Origin: a virus
Length of the DNA stretch: 64,000 nucleotides
Strand: one strand, 5' to 3'
Virus record (IMG/VR): IMGVR_UViG_3300032030_000058
Location: 9,733-73,732 of that record
The notes below the pieces were generated by a model. That model had not been told where the DNA came from and searched no databases. It was given only the letters and a program-made list of their open reading frames with translations. This document shows, in pieces, positions 4,854 through 56,706 of the stretch; the stretch's first letter is position 1, and each line of letters begins with the position of its first letter. Made by a program: the position numbers and the translations under genes.

Positions 4854-5405
4854 TTAATATTTCAACTCCCATTCATCATCATCTACACCCTCGTAGTATT
4901 CATCGAGAGCATCTTCTAGATTTTCAATATTTAATTGATTTAAAATTCTTTTAGGGACCATGCCTTTTTCGAGAATTAATTGCTTATCTTTTTCTGGAAG
5001 TGGTGCGCTTAATTGATCTTCTAGAAAATCAACCACATCTTGTTTAGAAAGATTAATGTTTCCAGTAAGATTTTCGCCATCTTTATTAATAACTTTAGAA
5101 ACATGTGATGGAACTTCGTCAACATCTTCATCATAACCGAGTTTTTTCCACTCAGGTTGGATGCCCAAAGTTTGTTTTAATTTTTCTTCGTAACTATCAT
5201 CAACACTATGAACATTTGCCATTCCTTGTTTCTTGACAAATATTTTTTCTTCATCGGTTAATTGTTCGCCTCTGCTGTGTTTTCTAAGTAAATCAGCCAT
5301 TTTGGCATTATTATCTTCGAAACTACCGCCACCAGATGCTTTATTTGCTCCAGTAGTAAATCTACCATTTTCGTCGTGATTTGGATTGCCTTTATTTTCT
5401 GTCAT
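4854..5405 (-). CDS. hypothetical protein with N-terminal GNPNHDENGRF motif
   Basis: Start placed at internal ATG 5403-5405 (MTENKGNPNHDENGRFTTG) preceded by AAGGAC; the longer ORF to 5444 overlaps the upstream gene. Confidence 0.5.
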   Translation of the reverse strand: MTENKGNPNHDENGRFTTGANKASGGGSFEDNNAKMADLLRKHSRGEQLTDEEKIFVKKQGMANVHSVDDSYEEKLKQTLGIQPEWKKLGYDEDVDEVPSHVSKVINKDGENLTGNINLSKQDVVDFLEDQLSAPLPEKDKQLILEKGMVPKRILNQLNIENLEDALDEYYEGVDDDEWELKY

Positions 5406-5409
5406 AATA

Positions 5410-5880
5410 TTAGTCCTTATTATATCTTTCTTCTTCAACTTCAATTACTTCTTCATCTTTGCCAAAATTCATTTTGAATAACTTTTCGGCTTCTTCTTTT
5501 TCTTTTTTGATTAAATCAGGACAAATAATATTTAAAGAAAATTCCATCATAGAATCTTTTTCTTCTGTATAATTTGCAGCACGATATCTTCTAAAAATAT
5601 CTTGTTCTAAAGAACAATGTCTAAAATCCCAATTATTAGAAATAGTAGCAAAATAATCTGCTTGTGCCATTAATTCTAAATCTTTAGCAAGAAATTCTAA
5701 ATTATCTTCAAAACCATCTTCACCTTTATCAAAATCTGGCAAATCGTTAAAATCTTGATGCAAAATTTCAACATCTTTATCGAGAAGTCCTTTAACTGCT
5801 TCTTCAATCTTTTCTAATGATTTTTCAATATCATCTTTTGAACGACCTTTTAATGGAATACTAACAAAAACTTTTTTCAT
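5410..5880 (-). CDS. hypothetical protein with scaffold-like C-terminal EEAEKLFKMNFG motif
   Basis: 156 aa; its C-terminal region matches the C-termini of the two scaffold-like proteins. Confidence 0.5.
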   Translation of the reverse strand: MKKVFVSIPLKGRSKDDIEKSLEKIEEAVKGLLDKDVEILHQDFNDLPDFDKGEDGFEDNLEFLAKDLELMAQADYFATISNNWDFRHCSLEQDIFRRYRAANYTEEKDSMMEFSLNIICPDLIKKEKEEAEKLFKMNFGKDEEVIEVEEERYNKD

Positions 5881-6183: not shown

Positions 6184-6987
6184 TTATAACTTAATATAAT
6201 CCTTCATTCCATATTTTTTATATACTTCATTCACTGGTTTTAATAAATAATCTTTATCTCTATCGGTAAAATATTTTAAAATTTCCTTTTTATAATTTTT
6301 AGGAACACCATAAAACGCTTCTGCAATTGCACACGAAATGGCACATAATGTGTCTGTGTCCCCACCAATACTTACTGATGTTCTTACACAATCTTCAAAG
6401 TTTTTGCTAATTAAAAAACAGAAAATTGCTTGTGGAACTGTGTTTTGGCACGTTTCATTAAAATGATATGTTTGCACTAAATCATAATAATTAAAACTAG
6501 CAATCTCTGGATATTCTTTTTCTGCATATGCGCGTATATCCTCTTTATTTTTATTATGTAAAGCCATAAAAATACACATGGCTGTTACTTCAGCACCTTT
6601 AAGTCCTTCAGGATGGTCGTGAGTGCAACTTGTCACCCTCCACGACAATTTCTTTACTTCTTCTTCATCATTAGCAAAATATGCTACAGGACTGATACGC
6701 ATCGCTGCCCCATTTCCGAAACTGTTATATGGACGTGGATGTTTATCTACCAACCAACGAGCAAATGAACCGCCATATCCCCTACCAGGAAATAAACGGC
6801 CATATGTTTGTAACATATCAACAATCGTTTTGCCACGGTCCTTTAATAATGATGCGGCCACGGCACATGTCATAACCGTATCGTCCGTGAAAAAACATTT
6901 TTTATTAAAAATATCAAAGGCTTTCCATCTATGATTGTGAAATTCATAAATTGAGCCAACTGTATCACCAATAATTGCACCTAACAT
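6184..6987 (-). CDS. ADP-ribosylglycohydrolase (DraG/ARH family)
   Basis: N-terminal GAIIGDTVGS, FTDDTVMT, GNGAAMR and C-terminal GGDTDT motifs typical of PF03747; own promoter and AAGGAGGG RBS. Confidence 0.85.
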   Translation of the reverse strand: MLGAIIGDTVGSIYEFHNHRWKAFDIFNKKCFFTDDTVMTCAVAASLLKDRGKTIVDMLQTYGRLFPGRGYGGSFARWLVDKHPRPYNSFGNGAAMRISPVAYFANDEEEVKKLSWRVTSCTHDHPEGLKGAEVTAMCIFMALHNKNKEDIRAYAEKEYPEIASFNYYDLVQTYHFNETCQNTVPQAIFCFLISKNFEDCVRTSVSIGGDTDTLCAISCAIAEAFYGVPKNYKKEILKYFTDRDKDYLLKPVNEVYKKYGMKDYIKL

Positions 6988-7050: not shown

Positions 7051-7227
7051 TTACATTTTTTCATATTTTGGGCATGGTTTACTTTCGTAGTAAACTTCTT
7101 TTGGTTTTAGATCGAATTTTGAACAATAAGTCGCCAAAAAATTAACTAATCCATATTTACATGTCAAACATGGAATAGTTGATTTATCTGGTAATTGAAT
7201 TGTTAATTCTTCATTTTCATCAATCAT
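7051..7227 (-). CDS. small Cys-rich (zinc-ribbon-like) protein
   Basis: Start at ATG 7225-7227 preceded by AAGGAG; CxxC...CxxxC-like spacing (CLTC...CSK...CPKY). Confidence 0.45.
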   Translation of the reverse strand: MIDENEELTIQLPDKSTIPCLTCKYGLVNFLATYCSKFDLKPKEVYYESKPCPKYEKM

Positions 7228-8833
7228 ATGCTTCTCCTTCCTCATGTCGTGGCTTATAATAATACTCGTTTCCAAGTTTCTTTAAATCATTACCCATAGG
7301 TTTGTTTTTGTCACTTCCTAAGATAACTTCCATATCTAAATAATAGTGACCACCTTTTTTCTCTACTTTGGTAATTTTATATTGATATCCTCTTTGGATA
7401 ATCATTTCATTTTCTCCGTGTCCGCTCGCTGAATATGGCGCAACATACGCCATTTTTACACCCTTCGGACAATAAATATTAAACACAATATTACCTGTGT
7501 GATAACCAGTTCCTTTAGCCGCACCGCAACTGACAAATCCATTATCGGTCCAGGACATACCCACTAATGAATCGCGTTGTTCCTCTGTCATTTCTTCTAA
7601 TGACATTTTTTTACTAGATCCTGGTAAAACAAACATGCTGGTGTAATTGGCAATATATCTATTTAACCAAATATCTTCATCCCAGGTACATTTATCGATA
7701 GCATTAGTTAAATTATTAACACCTTCAGAAAATGTTTGCATTCCTTCATAACCAAAACTATATCCACCCGCATCATGCTTAATACCACGTAACGGTTTAT
7801 TAAAACGACTATATCCAGAACCGGTATAGGCCTTGATAACAGAATGTTCAGCACTACTCATAGAATCCCAATGTTTTTCAGCGTTTGAGCTAAAATGGCT
7901 ATACGCCGAATCAAAGTTCTTCATCCATGTTGCCTTGTCTTTTCTTTGTTTAGAATATGCCGCATTAGGATTTTGGAACTTAGCCTGGAATTCACGTGCT
8001 AAAACAACATTAGGATTATCATCGTTATAATTAACTAACTGTTCATTTAATGAATTACTAAGACTTTCAATGTTTTCTAATTCATCAATATACTTTAAGT
8101 TAATTTGTTCTTTAGCTTTTTCGTATTCTTGGCCTGCTTCTTCAAAAGCATCGAGTTTTTTAAGGAAAATTTTAGCCCTTAATTTTTCTTCGGCATTTGA
8201 ATTTTCATTATCTAAAATACCTTGATACCAGTCGCGCTTTTTCTGAATCGATCCACTTTCGGATAATTCTTTCCAATCGCTAGGATATTTTGTGGAATAA
8301 GCCCAAACACCGGAAAGGCCGTCCATATTATTGACGGCTAATTCCTGAGCAATATCCTTTTCAATATCCTTTTTCTGTTGCTTTAATATTTCAATTTGTT
8401 GTGTAATATGAATCTTCTCATTATCGATTGCGACCGCGTATAATAAAGCACGTAATTCTTCATCGGAAGCATTCTTTAACTTAACCGCATCGAAACCGAG
8501 CTGCTCATTTTTGAGTTCGCCCATCATATCTTCGCGTGACATCGAATCGAACACTTCTTGACGTTCTGGGTTCACTAAGTCTTTATTTGCAGCAACATAA
8601 TCAACAGCCTGTTGTTTTAATGCTTCTTTTTTTCTACCAATTAATGCAGATAATTTGCTTTGAACATCGTTATATTTTTCAGGTATTTCGAGCTTCATCA
8701 CACCCACATCATCGCCAGGAGCACTAGCAAATTGACCACCCTTGCCACCTGGGGCACCGGCTGGTTCATGATTAGGATTTCCTTTATTTCCTTCGTTTTC
8801 AACAACGACTACTTCTTCTTTGTTTTCTTCCAT
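7220..8833 (-). CDS. ADP-ribosyltransferase, Alt-like (C3/VIP2 R-S-E class domain in C-terminal half)
   Basis: GYSRFNKPLR (Y-x-x-x-N-x-x-LR arginine region), MAYVAPYSA, and GENEMIIQRGYQYKI (ExE motif) align with iota/C3-type ART motifs; N-terminal KGNPNHE...GGQF motif. Confidence 0.75.
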   Translation of the reverse strand: MEENKEEVVVVENEGNKGNPNHEPAGAPGGKGGQFASAPGDDVGVMKLEIPEKYNDVQSKLSALIGRKKEALKQQAVDYVAANKDLVNPERQEVFDSMSREDMMGELKNEQLGFDAVKLKNASDEELRALLYAVAIDNEKIHITQQIEILKQQKKDIEKDIAQELAVNNMDGLSGVWAYSTKYPSDWKELSESGSIQKKRDWYQGILDNENSNAEEKLRAKIFLKKLDAFEEAGQEYEKAKEQINLKYIDELENIESLSNSLNEQLVNYNDDNPNVVLAREFQAKFQNPNAAYSKQRKDKATWMKNFDSAYSHFSSNAEKHWDSMSSAEHSVIKAYTGSGYSRFNKPLRGIKHDAGGYSFGYEGMQTFSEGVNNLTNAIDKCTWDEDIWLNRYIANYTSMFVLPGSSKKMSLEEMTEEQRDSLVGMSWTDNGFVSCGAAKGTGYHTGNIVFNIYCPKGVKMAYVAPYSASGHGENEMIIQRGYQYKITKVEKKGGHYYLDMEVILGSDKNKPMGNDLKKLGNEYYYKPRHEEGEAYD

Positions 8834-8878: not shown

Positions 8879-9112
8879 TTATTTCATTGCGTTTTCAATT
8901 CTTTCGGCTTCTAACAAGTCTTCGTAAAGGCCGTCCATGTTTTCATTTTCACTTTTGAAGTATTCTAATACATAACTAGGAATTTCAGATGCGTCACCTA
9001 CAACAATATAGTGATCTTTGATGTCTCTATCCCATTTGTCTGGATTTGCCTCCATCCATTCCCAGGCAATATATTCTTTACTTAACATTTCGTCCCATTC
9101 TTTTTCGTTCAT
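8879..9112 (-). CDS. acidic hypothetical protein
   Basis: 77 aa, own promoter (TTGACA at 9157-9162 on the minus strand) and GGAGAA RBS. Confidence 0.5.
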   Translation of the reverse strand: MNEKEWDEMLSKEYIAWEWMEANPDKWDRDIKDHYIVVGDASEIPSYVLEYFKSENENMDGLYEDLLEAERIENAMK

Positions 9113-9171
9113 ACTTTTTTCTCCTTCTGCATATATATTATTCTATTTATGCAAATGTGTCAATAGGTTTT

Positions 9172-10152
9172 TTAATATTTTATTTTATTCCAGGGAATTT
9201 CTTCCCAATGTGTTAACGGAATGGGATATTTTTTATTATCGTGTTGGAAATTCAATTGAGTGTTCATTTGTCCTTGCTTGTTAAGGGAACTGGATAAATA
9301 AATTTTTAATCCATTTTTATCTACAACCGTTTTTCTAAAAAAGAAAGGTTTACCTGTTTTATGATTTCGTCTCACTATTTCATTTCTATCTGAGAATCCA
9401 TGAGTCAATCTTTCTCTTTGATCGTTTGCGATTTCTCTTAAATCTCGCTCACTACCAAATTCATTAAATATTGCTTCTTTTAGTGCTGTTGAATTATAGT
9501 GCATTAACTTCATGCCATAAATTTGTTCAGCAATATTACCGTTTTGAGCGATGTTAATCAATGTATCTCTGTCGTCATTTAATAAATTTAAACACATAAA
9601 CATAAATGTGTTGGTTCCATGATTTTTCATATCATGTTTTGTGTTCAAAAATTGAGCATCACCACGGTCCCTTAATAAATGTAAAGGAATAGATGGATTA
9701 TCATAAGAATTAAAATCTCTTAAACGAATATATTTAAAATCTATTTTTAAATAACGAGTTTTTCCGGTCTTTGGATTATGCAAAACAACACGATAATCAA
9801 TTCCTCTATTTTCGTCAATTCTTTCGTCACCAAATCCTTCGCTGACTTTTTCATAACCAATATTATACAATCTAGTTAATGTTGAATCGATATTTTGAAT
9901 AAACAAAGGCATTGCAATTAATTTATCAAAAACTCGATCAGCGTCGTCTTCTGGCTTAATATCTAACGGATTATTTTTGCTAGAGTTAAAAATTGTTTTA
10001 TTGCCAACTTTTATAAGTTTTGTTTTCCAAGAACTTTTGCCTTCATATTGACCGGTATCATCATTATAATCTTTAGGAATAAATTGACCGCCATTAGGCT
10101 GCCCGGCATTAGCATGTAATCTGCCAGTTGCATCTTGAACTGCCATATGCAA
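9172..10152 (-). CDS. hypothetical protein with N-terminal NGGQF motif
   Basis: 326 aa ORF. Confidence 0.5.
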   Translation of the reverse strand: MHMAVQDATGRLHANAGQPNGGQFIPKDYNDDTGQYEGKSSWKTKLIKVGNKTIFNSSKNNPLDIKPEDDADRVFDKLIAMPLFIQNIDSTLTRLYNIGYEKVSEGFGDERIDENRGIDYRVVLHNPKTGKTRYLKIDFKYIRLRDFNSYDNPSIPLHLLRDRGDAQFLNTKHDMKNHGTNTFMFMCLNLLNDDRDTLINIAQNGNIAEQIYGMKLMHYNSTALKEAIFNEFGSERDLREIANDQRERLTHGFSDRNEIVRRNHKTGKPFFFRKTVVDKNGLKIYLSSSLNKQGQMNTQLNFQHDNKKYPIPLTHWEEIPWNKIKY

Positions 10153-10155
10153 CTC

Positions 10156-11058
10156 CTACATTAAAGATTCAAAAATTTCTGGATTGCTGGTCATGATTTC
10201 TTCTAATTCATCATCAGTAACTAAATCTGCATCATCACCAAACATTTTTTTAGCATTAGCCTTAGCAATTTCTGCTTGTTTTTCATTGAATTTGCCAGTT
10301 TTACCCCATGGTTTGCTTTGTTCCACTTTGACTTCTTCTTTGACTTCTTCTTGAACAGGAGCAGCTTGTTTCTTAGACTCAATAACTTTTTCAAGTTTCT
10401 TCTTCGCTTCACCTAAAGTTTCAATGCCACCATGTTTAGCACTGATAACATTTTGTTGTTGTTTGCTATCGTGTGCTTTTTCAATAGCGGCTTTTTCTGC
10501 TTGTGATTTAGCACCGGACTTGGTTTGCCAGTTTTCGGATTCGCCCTTGAATTCGCCTAATTTTGAGTCGTATTCCTTGGCCATATCCCAAACTGTTTTA
10601 GCACTGACCTTGGTAGATAAGCCTTCAGTGATAACCTTACCACCTTTTGTATACCATTTGTCTTTGTATTTGTCCCAATACGCACCAGATTTTGAACCGA
10701 ATTGTTGTTCGACATCTTTAATATAAACAACTCCATCTTCGTTTCCGCCAGTTAATGTTGGAGGAACAGTTTTGCCTCTGCTTGGGCCATATTTTGGATC
10801 AATGGATTGACCATTGACGGATTTATATGTGAATCGGCCTCCACGGTCACGGGGCTGAGAAGATTCTGGATTTTCTGCTTGTCTAATTTTGCCGTTTTCA
10901 CGAGTTGTTCTTGTATTAGAATCACCTTTTTTAAAAGGATGACCACCACCAGTAGATTCTTTATACTCGCCAAAACCTGTATTAAGACCTTCAGTTTCTT
11001 CCATTTTTTTAACGATATGCTTTTTAGCATCTTTACTTGGTTTATATTTTTTTGCCAT
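10156..11058 (-). CDS. basic low-complexity protein, possible internal virion/DNA-associated protein
   Basis: 300 aa, Lys/Gly-rich, RDRGGRFTYK motif near N-terminus, AKKMFG near C-terminus. Confidence 0.5.
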   Translation of the reverse strand: MAKKYKPSKDAKKHIVKKMEETEGLNTGFGEYKESTGGGHPFKKGDSNTRTTRENGKIRQAENPESSQPRDRGGRFTYKSVNGQSIDPKYGPSRGKTVPPTLTGGNEDGVVYIKDVEQQFGSKSGAYWDKYKDKWYTKGGKVITEGLSTKVSAKTVWDMAKEYDSKLGEFKGESENWQTKSGAKSQAEKAAIEKAHDSKQQQNVISAKHGGIETLGEAKKKLEKVIESKKQAAPVQEEVKEEVKVEQSKPWGKTGKFNEKQAEIAKANAKKMFGDDADLVTDDELEEIMTSNPEIFESLM

Positions 11059-11119
11059 AATAAATTACCTCATTCATAGTTATTTTACTAATAAATGATT
11101 TAATACACAATAAATAAAA

Positions 11120-12136
11120 TTATTTATATCGCCAAATATATCCACCTGCTTGTTTATATTTTCCATCACAACAAAATTTTATACTGCTTCTAGATGCACC
11201 AGTTTGTCTATGAGCCTCAATAGTGCTTTCAAATTCAGCAATAAAATTCATATTCATATCATATTGTATAACAGGCCTACGAACATCTATTAAAACTAAA
11301 GGTTCAATATGTAATGGATAATTATCATTTTCTTTAAATTTCCAAACATAATTTTTATATCTTTTTCTATTTCCGTAGCAACACTGTCTTAAACAACTTT
11401 CAGATGTATTCCCAAAGTATTTTACAACGGTATATACATTTGGCCATTCTCTTATAAAATAACCATTTGCATCATATTGCAAAACAGGTTTTCCAAACTC
11501 ACCAAATCTACCTTTTAACCAAGTGTGATGTCCTTTTTTAAATTCAGTTCTAGGACATAAATGTTTTCCTTTATGCATTTTGCTAATTAATTCTTTTGTA
11601 TCTTCGCTATGTTTGTGTGTATGGTGTTTACTACCCTTGTTCTTCTCACCCATTTTTCTACGAGCTTCTGCACTAATTTTATGCCCGGTCGCACCACTTC
11701 CGCCTTCTGTTCCGTTATATCCATGCTTAAAGGAATCAAACAACGCAATATAGTATTTTTCACGTTCATTTGCCAATTCAGGCGTTTCAATTCCTTCTTC
11801 CAACACTTCATGTTCAAATTTATCCCAGCCATATTTCTGAATTGCGGCCCAAAATTTCTTTTGGCCTGGTTGATTATAACCGTGGCCGTTTCTGCCCCAA
11901 CGCGAACGAATAAAACGCTGATTGGTGATGCCAATATAACATTTACCGTTTATTTTATTTGTGTGTTTATAAACAGTCCAGGTCGGAACATGAACAACGC
12001 CGCGTTTTTTCTTAATGATGCCGTAATTGGATAGAACGTGTTTTAATTGGTCCTCTTTCAAATTAAAAAACATAGCAGTATCTGCACGACTGTGTTTCTC
12101 TACTATGTAATAATTGTATAGTTCTTCTCTTGTCAT
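11120..12136 (-). mobile_element. free-standing GIY-YIG homing endonuclease with NUMOD-type DNA-binding repeats
   Basis: GKCYIGIT...R...YGWDKFEHEVLE...EREKYYIALFDS...GYNGTEGG GIY-YIG core, followed by His/Lys-rich repeats and two tandem ~50 aa repeats (PVLQYDANGYFIREW... / PVIQYDMNMNFIAEF...). Confidence 0.9.
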
Positions 12137-12207
12137 AAAATAAAATGCTCCTGTCCGATGCTCAGCGGGCCGGCCAGCACCGAATGGAGCATCTCTTTTA
12201 TATATTA

Positions 12208-12236
12208 ATTATAACATACCATATATATTAATGCAA
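12208..12236 (-). promoter_or_regulatory. promoter TTGCAT-17-TATAAT for the GIY-YIG endonuclease gene
   Basis: -35 at 12236-12231 and -10 at 12213-12208 on the minus strand, followed by a GC-rich leader hairpin. Confidence 0.55.
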
Positions 12237-12237
12237 A

Positions 12238-12273
12238 TAAAAAAGAGAGGAACTCTTATAACATTCCTCTCTA
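12238..12273 (-). terminator. terminator downstream of the capsid gene
   Basis: AGAGAGGAA...TTCCTCTCT stem plus T-run on the minus strand. Confidence 0.65.
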
Positions 12274-12291
12274 ATTTTTCAATTCAACCAA

Positions 12292-13602
12292 CTATGCTGC
12301 TGGAGTGGTGAATGCTGCAGTTGAGATAACTGTAACTTTACCATTGTGAGCACCGAAGAGTTTGTAACCAGTTGAAGCAGTTAAGATACCGCTTAAATCT
12401 TGGTATGGAAGCACTTCGATTGCAGCTCCTGGAACACTGTCACCAACTGCTGGAATGCTTGCAGAAGCAATAGCGTAAAGTTTTGTGACTAATAATCCAG
12501 GTCTTAATGGACTAATCCATGTTCCAGTGATCATGTTCATGCTTGCGTCATAGGAGAAGTTGAGTGTTGGTTCAACAGCTGCGACGTCAGAAACGTGAGC
12601 ATAAACACCAATTCTCTTATTATCTAAGACGAATAAATCGTGATAGATACGAACGTTCACTTTGTAACCATCGAAATCTTGGACAACGCCAGGACCGAAT
12701 GTCTTAACGTGTTCATATTTAACGACGTGAGCAACTTTGGATGGATCGCAGACGATAAAGTCGATTTGTTTATTGCCTGTATCCCATGTGTAACCACCGT
12801 TACCAGAGTTGAGTAATTTAATCATAGTTCTGAAACGTGAATTTGGAACAGTGATTAATTTTCTACCTTCGTATTCTTCGATTTTGAAACTAATGTTACC
12901 TTTGAATTCAGAAGCATCGATAGTTCTGATTAATTCATTAGTATTTCTTAATTTGTTTCTGAAAGATGTAGAACAGAAGATAACTTGTCTTTCTGCTGGA
13001 ACTTCAGCGTTATCTAAAGTTTCGAAAGCAAGATTTAAGTGATAAATAGGACCATTTAATGTGTATCCTAATTGACCAGCAACTGGATCAGCGATTGCTG
13101 TGCTGTTAACTGTGCCAGCGTATTCTGCTAATTTTGAGAACACATAAGCATCAACTTCAGGAACAACGTTAACTCTGTTGGTTTCTTTTAAAGCCATAGC
13201 GACTGCTAAACCATCAGTTTCTTCATCGTCCATTAATTCGATTCTTAATTGAATAGCACGATCAACTCTGAGTGTGAACTCTTCCCACACAACAGCGATA
13301 TCGCCTTCTGGATAACCGTAACCTTCGCCTGCTGCATAAGGTGTAGCGGAACCGGCTGCGTAATCACCAGAAACTGGGACATTAGCACGGCCATAGTCTT
13401 TTAAACCAGCACCCATGAATTTTGCGACTTTAACGGTCTTTGTGCCTGTGAATTTTAAGAAGTCTTTTTCACCATCTAAGATAGAGGAACGAGCTTCTGC
13501 TACATATACTTCATCCCAGGCTTTTGTAGCGTATTTTTGAATAAGAGCAATAGCATTACCTGCCATAATATTTTTTCCTTCCTCCGATTTAACGGAACTC
13601 AT
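12292..13602 (-). CDS. major capsid protein (HK97-fold, phi29-like with C-terminal Ig-like domain)
   Basis: 436 aa; sits directly downstream of two acidic scaffold-like genes, has its own strong terminator, and has a Thr/Ser/Val-rich C-terminal ~100 aa that looks like a BIG2/Ig-like extension. Confidence 0.6.
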   Translation of the reverse strand: MSSVKSEEGKNIMAGNAIALIQKYATKAWDEVYVAEARSSILDGEKDFLKFTGTKTVKVAKFMGAGLKDYGRANVPVSGDYAAGSATPYAAGEGYGYPEGDIAVVWEEFTLRVDRAIQLRIELMDDEETDGLAVAMALKETNRVNVVPEVDAYVFSKLAEYAGTVNSTAIADPVAGQLGYTLNGPIYHLNLAFETLDNAEVPAERQVIFCSTSFRNKLRNTNELIRTIDASEFKGNISFKIEEYEGRKLITVPNSRFRTMIKLLNSGNGGYTWDTGNKQIDFIVCDPSKVAHVVKYEHVKTFGPGVVQDFDGYKVNVRIYHDLFVLDNKRIGVYAHVSDVAAVEPTLNFSYDASMNMITGTWISPLRPGLLVTKLYAIASASIPAVGDSVPGAAIEVLPYQDLSGILTASTGYKLFGAHNGKVTVISTAAFTTPAA

Positions 13603-13660
13603 TATGGAAATATGCTATGTTTCTTTTTTGTGGCTTATCAAGTTTAACTTATAATATATA

Positions 13661-14059
13661 TTATAACTTAAACAGTTTTTTTGCTTCTTCCCATTCTTCT
13701 TCGTCGTCGTCACCGTTTTCGGATTCTCCTTCCTCAGTGACTTCTTCTTCATCAGAATCGGATTTAGCATCTTCAAGTTTGTTTTCGAATTCTTCTTTAG
13801 ATTCGCCAGGACCAATTTCTTTAGCGGCTTCAGCTTCTTCAGCGGTTACGCCTTCAGCACCAGCACCTTCTGGACCTGCATCTTTTTCGAAGTCTTCGTC
13901 AAGTTCTAACCCGATAGCGCTGCATAATGTGCCTAAATCTTCTTTAGACATTTTACCTTCACGGAAGAGAGGCCATAAAATACCATCTGCGATATCTTCT
14001 GGGGTTAAACCTGCATCTTGAAGTTTTTGCATCATTTCTTGGATTTCTTCATTATTCAT
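13661..14059 (-). CDS. acidic scaffold-like protein
   Basis: 132 aa, highly acidic, C-terminus EEWEEAKKLFKL. Confidence 0.5.
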   Translation of the reverse strand: MNNEEIQEMMQKLQDAGLTPEDIADGILWPLFREGKMSKEDLGTLCSAIGLELDEDFEKDAGPEGAGAEGVTAEEAEAAKEIGPGESKEEFENKLEDAKSDSDEEEVTEEGESENGDDDEEEWEEAKKLFKL

Positions 14060-14077
14060 GTGTGATTTACTCCTTAA

Positions 14078-14839
14078 TTAATGAAACTTCAACTTAAATA
14101 ATTTTTCTGCTTCCTCTTCTTCACTCATTTGAGGCGCAGGTTTTTGCTCATTACCGAGCGCTTTAATACGTGTCACAGGAGCTGGGGCTGGGGCTGGGGA
14201 AGCAGCTTCCGCTTCTTTCTCAGCATTAGCTTCGCCTTTCCATTCAGGATGGGTTTCTAATTCGGAGTTAATATTATCTAATGTAACTTCAAGGCCTTTT
14301 CCTTTAAGAATTAATTTGACATCCTCGTAACGATCCGCATCAACACCGGATTGCATAAGAGCGATAGTTTCCGACATATCAGTAAGTTTTTTGTCTGTGT
14401 CTGATTTTTCTTGTTCCCAAGACGCTTTATCAGCATCATACATTTCTTTCTGTGTGTCGTATCTTTGTGCATTAGCAACTAAAGCATCAAGTTCTTCTTC
14501 ATTTTTGACACCATAACGGCCATAAATGTAGTTAAACGTTTTCTCTCTAGTTTTAACACGAGTATCACCAACTAACTTATCCACATCATCCTGAGTGAAA
14601 GTTTTAATGGATGTGTCGATAGCACCGTTTTCCTCGACTAATTCTGTTTCTGCTGGTTGGGACACACCATTAGCTGCATCTTCTTCAGTATAAACAGCGC
14701 CAGCTTCGGCTTCATTTTCCTCTGCGGAAGTGGCAGCAGGATCGGATGTTTCAGTCATTTCTGGTGATTTGGAAACAACTTCTTCATCTGTTTTTTCTTC
14801 TTCGCCTTCCAAAATTGGTTTTTTTTCTAAATCTTCCAT
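14078..14839 (-). CDS. scaffolding protein (acidic, coiled)
   Basis: 253 aa, Glu-rich, C-terminus EEEEAEKLFKLKFH, immediately upstream of the capsid gene. Confidence 0.55.
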   Translation of the reverse strand: MEDLEKKPILEGEEEKTDEEVVSKSPEMTETSDPAATSAEENEAEAGAVYTEEDAANGVSQPAETELVEENGAIDTSIKTFTQDDVDKLVGDTRVKTREKTFNYIYGRYGVKNEEELDALVANAQRYDTQKEMYDADKASWEQEKSDTDKKLTDMSETIALMQSGVDADRYEDVKLILKGKGLEVTLDNINSELETHPEWKGEANAEKEAEAASPAPAPAPVTRIKALGNEQKPAPQMSEEEEAEKLFKLKFH

Positions 14840-51623: not shown

Positions 51624-51699
51624 TGGCAACGATGCCTGGGCTCGAACCAGGGAATATTAGAGTCAAAGTCTAATGCCTTACCAACTTGGCTACATCGTT
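51624..51699 (-). tRNA. tRNA-Gln (anticodon UUG)
   Basis: 76 nt; acceptor AACGATG/CATCGTT, anticodon stem TTAGA/TCTAA with loop CTTTGAC, T-arm CCTGG-TTCGAGC-CCAGG, encoded CCA. Confidence 0.85.
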
Positions 51700-51874: not shown

Positions 51875-51962
51875 TGGCGGAAGGTATAGGATTCGAACCT
51901 ATGCGCCCATCGGGCCTAGCGATTTAGCAAACCGCCCCCTTCAGCCAACTTGGGTAACCTTC
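51875..51962 (-). tRNA. tRNA-Ser (anticodon GCU), class II
   Basis: 88 nt; perfect acceptor GGAAGGT/ACCTTCC, anticodon loop TTGCTAA, long variable arm, T-arm ATAGG-TTCGAAT-CCTAT, CCA. Confidence 0.8.
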
Positions 51963-51965
51963 CGT

Positions 51966-55550: not shown

Positions 55551-55796
55551 TTATAAATCTTTGCTATTTATTTCAATGATTGTGCCGCACTTGGTGCATC
55601 TATATTTAACCATGCCTAATGAGTCACTTCCAATCCATTTAAGAAGGTCGCTTCCACATTCTGGACACGTAGGCCGTGTATATGGTTTTGAGTTGATACA
55701 ACAACCGATTTCAGCGTGTTGTTCCATTAAATCGATGAACTGTTTAATTTCTTCTGGTGATCCAGTAATTATATAATCACGATATTGTAGAATCAT
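55551..55796 (-). CDS. zinc-ribbon protein
   Basis: CPECGSD...CTKCG. Confidence 0.5.
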   Translation of the reverse strand: MILQYRDYIITGSPEEIKQFIDLMEQHAEIGCCINSKPYTRPTCPECGSDLLKWIGSDSLGMVKYRCTKCGTIIEINSKDL

Positions 55797-56338
55797 AATA
55801 GTTCCTCTTTCTTTTCATATTTCCATTCATATCCATACATTGTTTTGAATTTTCCTCTTGCACAAGCTGCTATGTTACCTTCCGAATAGCCAAGTTTTCT
55901 AGTTACTTCTCTTACACCTTCATATCTAGCAATAACTTTGCCATCTTTGATTTGTAAGATTGCTTTTTGGTTTTTCTGTTTTGCACATTCTATGGTTTTT
56001 CTAAAGTTGATTTGCAGCCCAGTATTGTGCGCATGTAACATATTTTCTTTTCTATCGTTCCATTCCAGGTTGCTAACAGTATTGTTATATTTATTGCCAT
56101 CGATATGATTCACTTCTTCTTTGTTTAAAGGATTAGGAATAAAGGCTTGTCCTACCAGTCTATGGATTTTGAATAATGTTTTCTTACCGTTGATTTTCAA
56201 AGTAATAACTTGGTAGATTCCATAATTATTATTCAGTTTTAATATTCTTCCTGTTTGTGCGTTTCTTACTCGCCCATAGCTGCTTATTTGATATATTCCG
56301 TTAGAGTTAGGTATATCTTTCCATTCTTCTTGGTTCAT
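55793..56338 (-). mobile_element. HNH homing endonuclease with N-terminal NUMOD4 motif
   Basis: EEWKDIPNSNGIYQISSYGRVRN (NUMOD4) and NHIDGNKYNNTVSNLEW...N (HNH_3 core). Confidence 0.85.
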
Positions 56339-56706
56339 AGTAATTCCTCCCTTGTTAATGCCCAGGTTTTGCCATAGTCTTTATAATAAAATCTAAATCT
56401 TTTTTTCAGGTTGGCGTCCCAAACTTCTATTATATTTCTCAAAGTATAAACATGATAGTGACCTGCTTTTTTGATTTTTCCTTCTATGACAAAATACGGA
56501 ATTAAATTATTTATTTGCCATTCAAGAAATTTAACCAAAGGCATTTCAATTTTTTCTTCATAATCTTCTAATTGACCGAGTTTGTTAAGTGAATGTCTTA
56601 CATATTCGCCAATGACTAATGGTTTCAGTTCTTCATCAACGCTTTCATCGATAACAAGATTTATGTCATACCAACCATCTTCTCTTTTTTTGGTTCTTCT
56701 ATTCAT
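56335..56706 (-). CDS. hypothetical protein
   Basis: 123 aa ORF. Confidence 0.5.
   Translation of the reverse strand: MNRRTKKREDGWYDINLVIDESVDEELKPLVIGEYVRHSLNKLGQLEDYEEKIEMPLVKFLEWQINNLIPYFVIEGKIKKAGHYHVYTLRNIIEVWDANLKKRFRFYYKDYGKTWALTREELL

What the first reader, a model, noticed from the sequence alone, without database searches (positions are those of the whole stretch)
11120..12291. Free-standing GIY-YIG homing endonuclease just downstream of the capsid gene, with a GC-rich leader hairpin that can occlude its RBS
The HEG has a GIY-YIG core plus NUMOD-type repeats. It has its own TTGCAT-17-TATAAT promoter. Its 70 nt leader (12137-12205) is the most GC-rich stretch in the region (gatgctccattcggtgctggccggcccgctgagcatcggacaggagcat). 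Inverted repeats ATGCTCC/GGAGCAT would pair the only SD-like GGAG. This is the I-TevI/Seg style of translational self-limitation. Placement next to the most highly expressed late gene is typical of an intron-less homing element.
Basis: partly seen in the sequence, partly recalled or inferred. Interest (0 to 1): 0.5.

Follow-up and report, generated by a model that had tools for sequence, protein, structure and literature searches.

The report
Capsid-adjacent homing endonuclease with self-silencing leader
A selfish DNA-cutting gene (a GIY-YIG homing endonuclease) sits between the capsid gene and the next gene of an uncultured phage, and it carries its own promoter plus a conserved RNA hairpin that buries its ribosome-binding site; this is a well-known kind of element, confirmed here.

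Summary
ORF 11120..12136 (-) is a 338-aa GIY-YIG endonuclease. It has an N-terminal 3-helix module, an I-TevI-like catalytic domain with invariant Tyr/Tyr/Arg/Glu/Asn, a NUMOD3 region and two NUMOD1-like modules.

It is optional in related genomes:
- Five related phage contigs go from the capsid gene to the downstream 300-aa gene without it.
- Homologues (53-69% aa identity) occupy the same slot on five other contigs, four distinct proteins.
- One contig keeps only a frameshifted stump.

The leader hairpin folds at -32 kcal/mol (z = -4.9). It is the most stable 5' region of 80 ORFs in the window, and its SD is paired with probability about 1.

The same architecture precedes every homologue whose leader could be read: an extended -10 promoter, the 5' arm GATGCTCC, a variable inner helix, the SD arm GGAGCAT, a U-tract and the ATG. 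The outer arms are 17/18 identical where HEG synonymous sites are saturated. Formal covariation is absent because there are too few variants.

It differs from the T4 paradigm in two ways. The promoter lies upstream of the whole hairpin, so no transcript escapes it. The U-tract also makes it look like a terminator.

Verdict: a new member of a known kind, of modest interest.

The parts
12292..13602 (-). Major capsid protein gene. The likely start is the ATG at 13566, giving 424 aa. It is the upstream neighbour of the cassette.
   Evidence: tblastn to annotated major head proteins. A 424-aa product is called on the source-like contig. More than 25 clusters share 74-84% identity.
12235..12272 (-). 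Terminator-like hairpin of the capsid gene: AGAGAGGAA, an 11-nt loop, TTCCTCTCT, then TTTTTATTT. It marks the left edge of the variable slot.
   Evidence: Read. Equivalent stem plus T-run follows the capsid stop in L001, L002, L018, L020, L022, L023, L025 and L027. The scanner did not call it because it limits loops to 8 nt.
12208..12236 (-). Promoter-like site TTGCAT-17-TG-n-TATAAT (extended -10).
   Evidence: A TATAAT box lies 10-11 nt upstream of the 5' arm in L020, L024, L025 and L027, against 14 nt in the window. Function was not tested.
12137..12200 (-). Leader RNA. The outer helix pairs GATGCTCC (12193..12186) with GGAGCAT (12151..12145, containing SD GGAG at 12151..12148). The inner helix pairs 12184..12176 with 12162..12154. 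The U-tract is at 12144..12137.
   Evidence: Folding. Conservation in L020, L024, L025 and L027-L029. No Rfam family matches. It is unique in the window.
11120..12136 (-). GIY-YIG homing endonuclease gene, 338 aa. Modules: N-terminal 3-helix module (aa 1-45, nt 12002..12136); GIY-YIG domain (aa 53-138, nt 11723..11980); NUMOD3 (aa 151-185, nt 11582..11686); NUMOD1-like modules (aa ~216-267 and 287-338, nt 11336..11491 and 11123..11278).
   Evidence: Pfam. I-TevI alignment. Invariant Y56, Y67, R79, E126 and N141 in 31 homologues. AF2 pLDDT 80.9. Foldseek top hits are 1MK0 and 1LN0. pN << pS against homologues.
11059..11119 (-). 61-nt spacer between the HEG stop and the next gene. Its last ~35 nt (TAAAATAACTATGAATGAGGTAATTTATT) match the empty-site allele of L023 and carry the RBS of the next gene. 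This is the right edge of the insertion, at about 11090.
10156..11058 (-). Downstream 300-aa gene with no Pfam match. It is the constant 3' neighbour of this HEG family in the relatives whose contigs extend past the HEG.

Best explanation
The segment from about 12236 to about 11090 is a self-contained mobile cassette. It sits between the capsid gene's terminator and the ribosome-binding site of the next gene. It has three parts: an extended -10 promoter, a roughly 65-nt leader, and a free-standing GIY-YIG homing endonuclease gene.

**The enzyme (shown by sequence and predicted fold).**
- An I-TevI-type catalytic domain with all catalytic residues.
- NUMOD3 and NUMOD1 DNA-binding modules strung behind it.
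- An extra N-terminal helix-turn-helix-like module.

**How it spreads (inferred from family behaviour).** During mixed infection the enzyme cuts genomes that lack the cassette near this slot. Repair from the HEG-bearing genome then copies the cassette in. That gives the patchy presence, absence and decay seen among relatives.

**How it is restrained.** Shown by folding and conservation: the leader folds from the 5' end of the transcript into a long hairpin whose basal helix pairs the only Shine-Dalgarno sequence with a conserved anti-SD arm. Inferred: ribosomes rarely load, and the U-tract directly after the stem probably also terminates part of the transcripts. Nuclease output therefore stays low at all times.

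The promoter lies upstream of the whole hairpin. Unlike T4, there is no promoter-choice switch. Expression would depend on leak, or on transient co-transcriptional pairing of the 5' arm with an internal SD-like segment (speculative).
For: **Enzyme**
- Pfam matches GIY-YIG, NUMOD3 and NUMOD1.
- The alignment to I-TevI 1LN0/1MK0 has Tyr, Tyr, Arg, Glu and Asn in place. These residues are invariant in 31 homologues.
- The AF2 model has pLDDT 80.9. Its best PDB matches are the I-TevI catalytic domain (TM 0.74-0.77), then I-HmuI.
- The coding sequence is under purifying selection: pN 0.19-0.30 against pS 0.64-0.75.

**Optional and mobile-like**
- Absent in L001, L002, L018, L022 and L023.
- Homologues present on L024, L025 and L027-L029.
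- A frameshifted stump with an intact leader in L020.
- HEG+ L025 has its closest capsid (91%) in HEG- L001.
- Synonymous divergence jumps across the capsid/HEG boundary: pS about 0.5 in the capsid against about 0.7 in the HEG and the downstream gene, for the same genome pairs.
- The empty-site allele of L023 maps the insertion edges.

**Leader**
- MFE is -32 kcal/mol with z = -4.9.
- All four sequence variants fold the same way with the SD fully paired. Opening it costs 10-16 kcal/mol.
- It is the most stable 5' region of 80 ORFs.
- The outer arms are 17/18 identical between the window and L027, while the interior is 13/34 identical and synonymous sites are saturated.
- The three changes in the outer helix all keep pairing as G.U. 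This works only in sense-strand RNA. The covariance model scores 68 bits in sense and 26 in antisense.

**Precedent**
- RBS-sequestering hairpins are known for I-TevI/II/III, segB and Aeh1 mobE, and T4 segD lies between genes 23 and 24 (PMC2988022).
- HEGs cluster beside essential genes and at boundaries of genetic exchange (PMC10448857).
Against: - No cleavage activity, target site or co-conversion tract could be shown.
- No cluster of sites in the capsid gene separates HEG+ from HEG- genomes.
- Formal covariation is absent. On the model-fitted alignment of 5 leaders there are 0 double-sided changes, and shuffles do as well as the observed value.
- Only about 4 independent leader variants exist.
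- The promoter is a consensus match in AT-rich DNA, with 8 found against 6.7 expected.
- The HEG lineages are old (53-69% aa identity), so vertical inheritance with repeated loss fits the pattern as well as recent homing does.
- The SD-to-AUG spacing of 11 nt is long.
- The leader is kept intact in L020, where the HEG is dead. This hints at a role independent of HEG translation.
Confidence: 0.7

Rival explanations
1. The hairpin is primarily an intrinsic terminator or attenuator. It stops most transcripts, whether read-through from the capsid unit or started at the local promoter, before they reach the nuclease ORF. Burial of the SD is a by-product.
For: - The stem is followed directly by U4AU4 in the window, U5AU4 in L025, U5 in L024 and U8 in L027. 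An A-rich 5' flank can extend the helix.
- The form resembles the genome's own terminators, such as the one at 12272..12235.
- The leader is retained unchanged in L020 although the HEG behind it is destroyed.
- Aeh1 mobE is reported to combine terminators and an RBS hairpin (PMC2988022).
Against: - Each locus already has a canonical terminator upstream of the promoter.
- The 5' arm is exactly complementary to the SD in every variant.
- The partial leader of L026 ends GGAGUCUUAUG with no U-tract.
- The terminator scan did not call it, though its loop limit excludes such long hairpins.
- This reading is compatible with the best explanation rather than exclusive of it.
Confidence: 0.35
2. The gene is a domesticated nuclease-derived regulator or exclusion factor. 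It would act on the capsid or cargo gene region, as I-TevI acts as an autorepressor or as satellite-encoded HEG-like repressors do. It would not be an actively homing element.
For: - It is always directly upstream of the 300-aa gene, even when the upstream gene differs (L024, L026).
- Purifying selection has acted over deep divergence.
- It has an extra N-terminal HTH-like module.
- Domesticated HEG-like regulators of capsid operons are described in the title and abstract of PMC8096241.
Against: - The catalytic residues are invariant.
- The gene is dispensable, absent from five relatives, and decays in L020.
- The promoter and leader DNA show no operator-like similarity to HEG-less alleles above shuffled controls.
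Confidence: 0.12
3. The leader is a 5'-terminal stabiliser hairpin that protects the mRNA from 5'-end-dependent decay, or it is a DNA-level protein-binding palindrome. In either case it is not a translational repressor.
For: - The hairpin would begin within about 3-7 nt of the predicted transcript start in all variants.
- It contains the GC-rich palindrome GGCCGGCC/CCGG.
Against: - A stabiliser need not contain the SD, yet here the SD is always inside the stem.
- The sequence changes keep pairing only as G.U in the sense RNA. They would be mismatches in a DNA palindrome or in the antisense strand.
- The interior sequence, including most of the palindrome, is not conserved: 13/34 identity.
Confidence: 0.1

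Closest known systems
Phage T4 SegD and the other Seg free-standing GIY-YIG endonucleases
   Same: Both are free-standing GIY-YIG genes inserted in an intergenic slot between conserved structural genes. T4 segD lies between gene 23 (major capsid) and gene 24 (PMC2988022). Both are optional among related phages.
   Different: segD is antisense to its neighbours and has no promoter of its own (PMC2988022). This gene is co-oriented with its neighbours and has a promoter-like site and a conserved leader. Sequence identity to any GenBank phage protein is 34% or less. It also carries an extra N-terminal helical module.
I-TevI (T4 td intron endonuclease; PDB 1LN0, 1MK0)
   Same: The catalytic domain fold and residues match. 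Both have a 'beads on a string' architecture with DNA-binding modules behind a linker. In both, the RBS is buried in a stable hairpin (PMC2988022).
   Different: I-TevI is intron-encoded. Its late promoter starts inside the hairpin, so late mRNA is translatable, and it autorepresses through an operator that resembles its homing site. Here the element is free-standing, the promoter lies upstream of the whole hairpin, and no operator-like match was found.
RBS-sequestering hairpins of Aeh1 mobE and T4 segB
   Same: Both are free-standing HEGs whose SD lies in a stable stem. For mobE, terminators add a second control (PMC2988022).
   Different: Those are HNH (mobE) or tRNA-cluster (segB) elements of T-even phages, with late promoters that bypass the hairpin. 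Here the hairpin, U-tract and promoter form a conserved unit that travels with the HEG across at least four lineages of a Firmicute-type phage group.
Free-standing HEGs that cooperate with introns ('collaborative homing': T4 mobE/I-TevIII; cyanophage psbA HEG)
   Same: A relative (L023) carries a group I intron with an HNH-type ORF in the capsid gene next to this slot. The literature describes free-standing HEGs beside genes whose intron insertion site they cut (PMC2790892; discussed in PMC10448857).
   Different: There is no evidence here that this HEG targets the capsid intron site. The site is identical at protein level in all genomes, and no nucleotide pattern separates HEG+ from HEG-.

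Membership tests
GIY-YIG homing endonucleases (I-TevI/Seg type) | GIY-YIG catalytic domain detected by profile | tested here: met
   PF01541 scores 24.3 bits against a cutoff of 22.6, over aa 53-138. phmmer to I-TevI 1LN0/1MK0 gives E 0.045-0.05, a marginal value.
GIY-YIG homing endonucleases (I-TevI/Seg type) | Catalytic residues present: Tyr of GIY, Tyr of YIG, and equivalents of Arg27, Glu75 and Asn90 | tested here: met
   Y56, Y67, R79, E126 and N141 align with the I-TevI residues and are invariant in 31 homologues.
GIY-YIG homing endonucleases (I-TevI/Seg type) | GIY-YIG alpha/beta fold | tested here: met
   In the AF2 model, pLDDT is about 75-94 in the catalytic region. Foldseek top hits are 1MK0 and 1LN0, with target TM 0.74-0.77 and rmsd 3.0-3.4 A. 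The structure is predicted, not solved.
GIY-YIG homing endonucleases (I-TevI/Seg type) | Modular DNA-binding region (NUMOD or HTH modules) tethered to the nuclease | tested here: met
   NUMOD3 and NUMOD1 pass their Pfam thresholds, and I-HmuI NUMOD-like matches weakly. There are two repeated beta-beta-alpha-alpha modules. I-HmuI is the 4th fold hit.
GIY-YIG homing endonucleases (I-TevI/Seg type) | Free-standing: not inside an intron or intein | tested here: met
   It lies between complete ORFs, flanked by a terminator and an RBS. There is no intron family hit in 10900-12600.
GIY-YIG homing endonucleases (I-TevI/Seg type) | Presence/absence polymorphism at a fixed locus among related genomes | tested here: met
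   Five HEG-less contigs (L001, L002, L018, L022, L023), five HEG-bearing contigs beside the window's own phage (L024, L025, L027-L029; four distinct HEG proteins), and one decayed copy, L020.
GIY-YIG homing endonucleases (I-TevI/Seg type) | Site-specific cleavage of the HEG-less allele, with biased inheritance | not testable with these tools
   No discriminating sequence signature was found in the flanks. This needs a biochemical assay and phage crosses.
T4-type translational control of HEGs by an RBS-sequestering hairpin | The SD lies inside a hairpin more stable than chance | tested here: met
   MFE -32 kcal/mol, z = -4.89. SD unpaired probability <= 0.003. It ranks 1st of 80 upstream regions for stability.
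T4-type translational control of HEGs by an RBS-sequestering hairpin | The structure is conserved among homologous elements | tested here: inconclusive
   The same fold appears in 4 variants and 92.9% of cells are paired, against 39-57% for slid controls. But there are 0 compensatory double changes, and shuffles equal the observed value. The outer arms are 17/18 identical despite saturated synonymous sites.
T4-type translational control of HEGs by an RBS-sequestering hairpin | A late promoter positioned so that its transcripts lack the inhibitory 5' arm | tested here: not met
   The only promoter-like site ends at 12208, 14 nt upstream of the 5' arm at 12193 (about 10-11 nt in L020, L024, L025 and L027). 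The judgement is from sequence only, because the transcription start site was not mapped.
Intrinsic terminator / attenuator | G+C-containing stem immediately followed by a U-tract | tested here: inconclusive
   By inspection, the stem is followed by U4AU4, and by U5 to U8 in relatives. The consensus scanner found 0 terminators in the region, but it also missed the obvious capsid terminator because of its loop limit.
Any described RNA family (Rfam 15) | Covariance-model match | tested here: not met
   There is no match better than E about 1 in 10900-12600, and none overlaps the leader meaningfully. The whole window gives only two tRNAs at gathering score.

The most novel reading that the evidence does not exclude
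The leader may be a previously undescribed mobile cis-regulatory RNA that travels with this HEG lineage and works as a switch rather than a fixed brake.

In every variant the 5' arm (GAUGCUC) can pair either with the SD arm (GGAGCAU) or with an internal SD-like segment (GAGCAUC, GGGCAUC or GGGUGUC) that is transcribed first. The best SD-open structure is always this alternative hairpin, at -14 to -17 kcal/mol. Co-transcriptional folding, or a phage or host factor, could then open a short window of translation and anti-termination.

A second unexcluded idea is that the HEG cooperates with the group I intron seen in a relative's capsid gene ('collaborative homing').
Probability: 0.12. Interest if true: 0.55.

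Novelty: new member of a known kind. Interest (0 to 1): 0.3.

Why it matters
Free-standing homing endonucleases shape phage genome mosaicism. How they keep a toxic nuclease under control outside the T-even phages is little documented.

This locus offers a compact comparative example from an uncultured phage group, probably infecting gut Clostridia, that has no close GenBank relative. The promoter, the SD-burying terminator-like leader and the nuclease behave as one unit. That unit is found intact, absent or decayed at a single hot spot, which in relatives also hosts a capsid-gene intron and unknown structured RNAs.

The locus also marks a boundary where synonymous divergence changes. This fits the idea that nuclease genes sit at recombination boundaries.

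None of this overturns current understanding. It extends a known pattern and gives a set of alleles ready for cleavage and reporter assays.

Tried and rejected
**Searches that found nothing**
- megablast of 9000-14500 against GenBank phages: no match.
- Rfam on the leader region, on the L001 and L027 intergenic blocks, and on the whole window: no relevant family.
- Exact or 3-mismatch copies of the hairpin elsewhere in the window: none.
- IMG/VR scan for GATGCTCC-N25-55-GGAGCATTTTATTTTATG: none.
- Covariance model R1 of the leader found no copy other than the training leaders. It was run against the window and 22 loci, against 80 IMG/VR loci of distant HEG relatives, and against 10 genome loci.
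- The metagenome scan with the capsid alignment returned only short contigs with no context.
- The genome-contig scan found only 27-47% relatives in Clostridia and Oscillospiraceae MAGs.

**Tests with negative or uninformative results**
- Leader hairpins are not a general trait of the wider family. The 5' regions of 76 distant relatives average -12.1 kcal/mol, against -11.5 for background.
- Formal covariation test: negative or underpowered.
- My own structure-based register suggested 5 'compensatory' pairs in the inner helix between the window and L027. These depend on a register shift, so I do not count them.
- Search for a target or immunity signature. Only 5 scattered columns of 1302 in the capsid gene separate HEG+ from HEG-, and none lies at the intron insertion site. 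The downstream junction shows no such pattern.
- Operator-mimic test (leader and promoter against HEG-less alleles): best 14-16/20, the same as shuffles.
- A possible ~25-bp direct repeat of the empty-site sequence on both sides of the cassette. I judged it unconvincing in AT-rich DNA.
- L008 against the window for population polymorphism: 100% identical over 8.3 kb, so uninformative.

Full report
**1. What is at the coordinates**

On the minus strand, the major capsid gene (12292..13602) comes first. Its likely start is at 13566. It is identified by roughly 28% tblastn matches to annotated major head proteins.

A terminator-like hairpin follows at 12272..12235. Next come:
- TTGCAT-17-TGtTATAAT at 12236..12208;
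- a leader of about 65 nt;
- a 338-aa ORF at 12136..11120;
- a 61-nt spacer;
- a 300-aa gene of unknown function at 11058..10156.

The ORF passes Pfam thresholds for GIY-YIG, NUMOD3 and NUMOD1.

**2. The protein is an intact GIY-YIG homing-type endonuclease**

- It aligns with the I-TevI catalytic domain, with the two Tyr, Arg, Glu and Asn in place.
- These residues (Y56, Y67, R79, E126, N141) are invariant across 31 homologues.
- An AlphaFold model (mean pLDDT 80.9) has the I-TevI catalytic domain as its best PDB match (TM 0.74-0.77). I-HmuI matches the DNA-binding part.
- The model shows an N-terminal three-helix module (aa 3-37), the catalytic domain, NUMOD3 helices, a disordered linker, and two repeated NUMOD1-like modules.
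- Only a subset of close homologues has the N-terminal module. In the others the same leader abuts MKKTWTIY directly.
- Against homologues, pN is 0.19-0.30 and pS is 0.64-0.75, so the coding sequence is under purifying selection.

**3. It is optional at a fixed slot**

GenBank phages hold nothing close. Public assemblies hold a family of related phages with capsids 74-91% identical.

| State | Loci |
|---|---|
| Capsid runs to the 300-aa gene with no HEG | L001, L002, L018, L022, L023 |
| HEG homologue in the same slot (69, 63 and 53% aa identity) | L024, L025, L027-L029 |
| Leader plus a frameshifted N-terminal stump | L020 |

- The distribution is patchy. The closest capsid to HEG+ L025 is that of HEG- L001, at 91%.
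- In L024 the upstream gene is not the capsid. In L026 a 64% homologue precedes a distant relative of the 300-aa gene. The constant neighbour is therefore the downstream gene.
- The best empty-site allele, L023, places the insertion between the T-run of the capsid terminator and about 35 nt upstream of the next ATG.
- Synonymous divergence is about 0.5 in the capsid gene but about 0.7 (saturated) in the HEG and the downstream gene, for the same genome pairs. The cassette therefore sits at a mosaic boundary, as described for phage nuclease genes (PMC10448857).

**4. The leader**

- The 96-nt stretch folds at -32 kcal/mol, z = -4.89.
- The GGAG is paired with probability about 1, and opening it costs 13.7 kcal/mol.
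- Among the upstream regions of 80 ORFs in the window it is the most stable, by 4.5 sd.
- Its 49-nt core has the highest GC of any 49-mer in the window.
- The same design precedes every homologue whose leader was recovered: TATAAT, 10-14 nt, 5' arm G(A/G)TGCTC(C/T), a variable inner helix with a CCGG-containing loop, the SD arm GGAGC(A/G)T, a U-tract, then ATG.
- All four variants fold alike.
- The outer arms are 17/18 identical between the window and L027, while the interior is 13/34 identical and synonymous sites are saturated. The arms are therefore constrained.
- The three substitutions in the outer helix all keep pairing as G.U. This is possible only in sense RNA, and the covariance model prefers the sense strand, 68 against 26 bits.
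- Formal covariation is nil: 0 double-sided changes, and shuffles do as well. Five sequences are too few, so the RNA structure is well supported by energy and conservation but not proven by covariation.
- The motif matches no Rfam family. It occurs nowhere else in the window or in 90 loci of more distant HEG relatives. Those relatives have no unusually structured 5' regions.

**5. Mechanism**

The SD-in-stem design matches the hairpins known for I-TevI/II/III, segB and Aeh1 mobE (PMC2988022). One defining feature of that system is not met. In T4 a late promoter fires from inside the hairpin and releases the RBS. Here the only promoter-like site lies wholly upstream, so all transcripts should carry the complete hairpin.

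A U-tract follows the stem directly (U4AU4, and U5 to U8 in relatives), like this genome's own terminators.

I therefore favour constitutive two-level damping: attenuation plus RBS occlusion. The steps beyond folding and conservation are inferred.

One feature may allow a transient 'on' state. The 5' arm can pair alternatively with an internal SD-like segment in every variant. This is speculation.

**6. What could not be shown**

- No target site, immunity polymorphism or co-conversion tract could be found.
- No operator-like similarity to HEG-less alleles exists.
- The HEG lineages are old, so repeated loss of a vertically inherited gene fits the pattern as well as recent homing does.

**7. 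Comparison and verdict**

The closest analogues are T4 SegD, a GIY-YIG gene between capsid gene 23 and gene 24, and the hairpin-regulated HEGs of T-even phages (PMC2988022).

This is a new member of a known kind. Its local twist is a conserved cassette of promoter, hairpin and U-tract that moves with the gene. Interest is modest.

Noticed in passing
window 55793..56338 (-): A second homing-type endonuclease in the window: 181 aa, Pfam NUMOD4 + HNH_3 + I-HmuI NUMOD-like. Its start overlaps the stop of the upstream ORF 56335..56706 by 4 nt, so it uses a different expression arrangement (possibly translational coupling) and has no leader hairpin.
   Followed up: partly
L023 2738..4870 (ENA ERZ14210017 NODE_173): In a relative, the major capsid gene is split between codons P136 and E137 (NRVNVVP|EVDAYVF). 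The insert of about 800 nt gives sub-threshold Rfam group I intron hits (37 bits, E 2e-7) and contains a 95-aa NUMOD4 ORF. This looks like a group I intron with an HEG in the capsid gene, right next to the slot studied here.
   Followed up: partly
L027 3485..3830; L029 868..1130; L022 5840..6082 and 5345..5495; L024 1400..1610; L001 7370..7650; L025 3785..3900: GC-rich blocks of 150-340 nt sit in the same capsid-downstream slot of relatives. At least L027 and L022 have a sigma-70-like promoter in front, and each block ends in a terminator. They share motifs (GGGGTTATCCCGC, AAACCGATAAGG, AACTTCCTAGCG, GGCACTATAAACA) in modular combinations. L027 folds with z = -4.0, and there is no Rfam match. 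They are candidate undescribed structured RNAs, absent from the window itself.
   Followed up: partly
L020 5376..5678; L022 5534..5809: A small ORF family (91-100 aa, MSR..NT.HSYFRA.ERFGW...ASRYGKS.EN.EPGPL) with no Pfam match and its own promoter-like site is inserted in the same hot spot in two relatives. L024 has an unrelated 91-aa ORF there.
   Followed up: no
window 7220..8833 (-), 9172..10152 (-), 10156..11058 (-); L002 8238..9569 and 9765..10769; L024 92..1066: The genes after the capsid/HEG slot form a variable cargo set that includes a 537-aa ADP-ribosyltransferase (PF03496). An ADP-ribosylglycohydrolase is called further on by the precomputed contig annotation (gene 6184..6987 in the window). 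Many of these proteins share an N-terminal motif resembling N(P)NH.PAG.P.GGQF. This could be a common capsid-targeting or processing signal for packaged or ejected proteins. The function is my inference.
   Followed up: no
window 12292..13566 versus 10156..12136: Synonymous divergence to the same relatives changes abruptly at the capsid/HEG junction: pS about 0.49-0.54 in the capsid, against 0.64-0.74 in the HEG and the downstream gene. This indicates a recombination boundary at the cassette.
   Followed up: partly
window 51627..51699 and 51878..51963 (-): Two tRNA genes are the only Rfam gathering-level hits in the 64-kb window.
   Followed up: no
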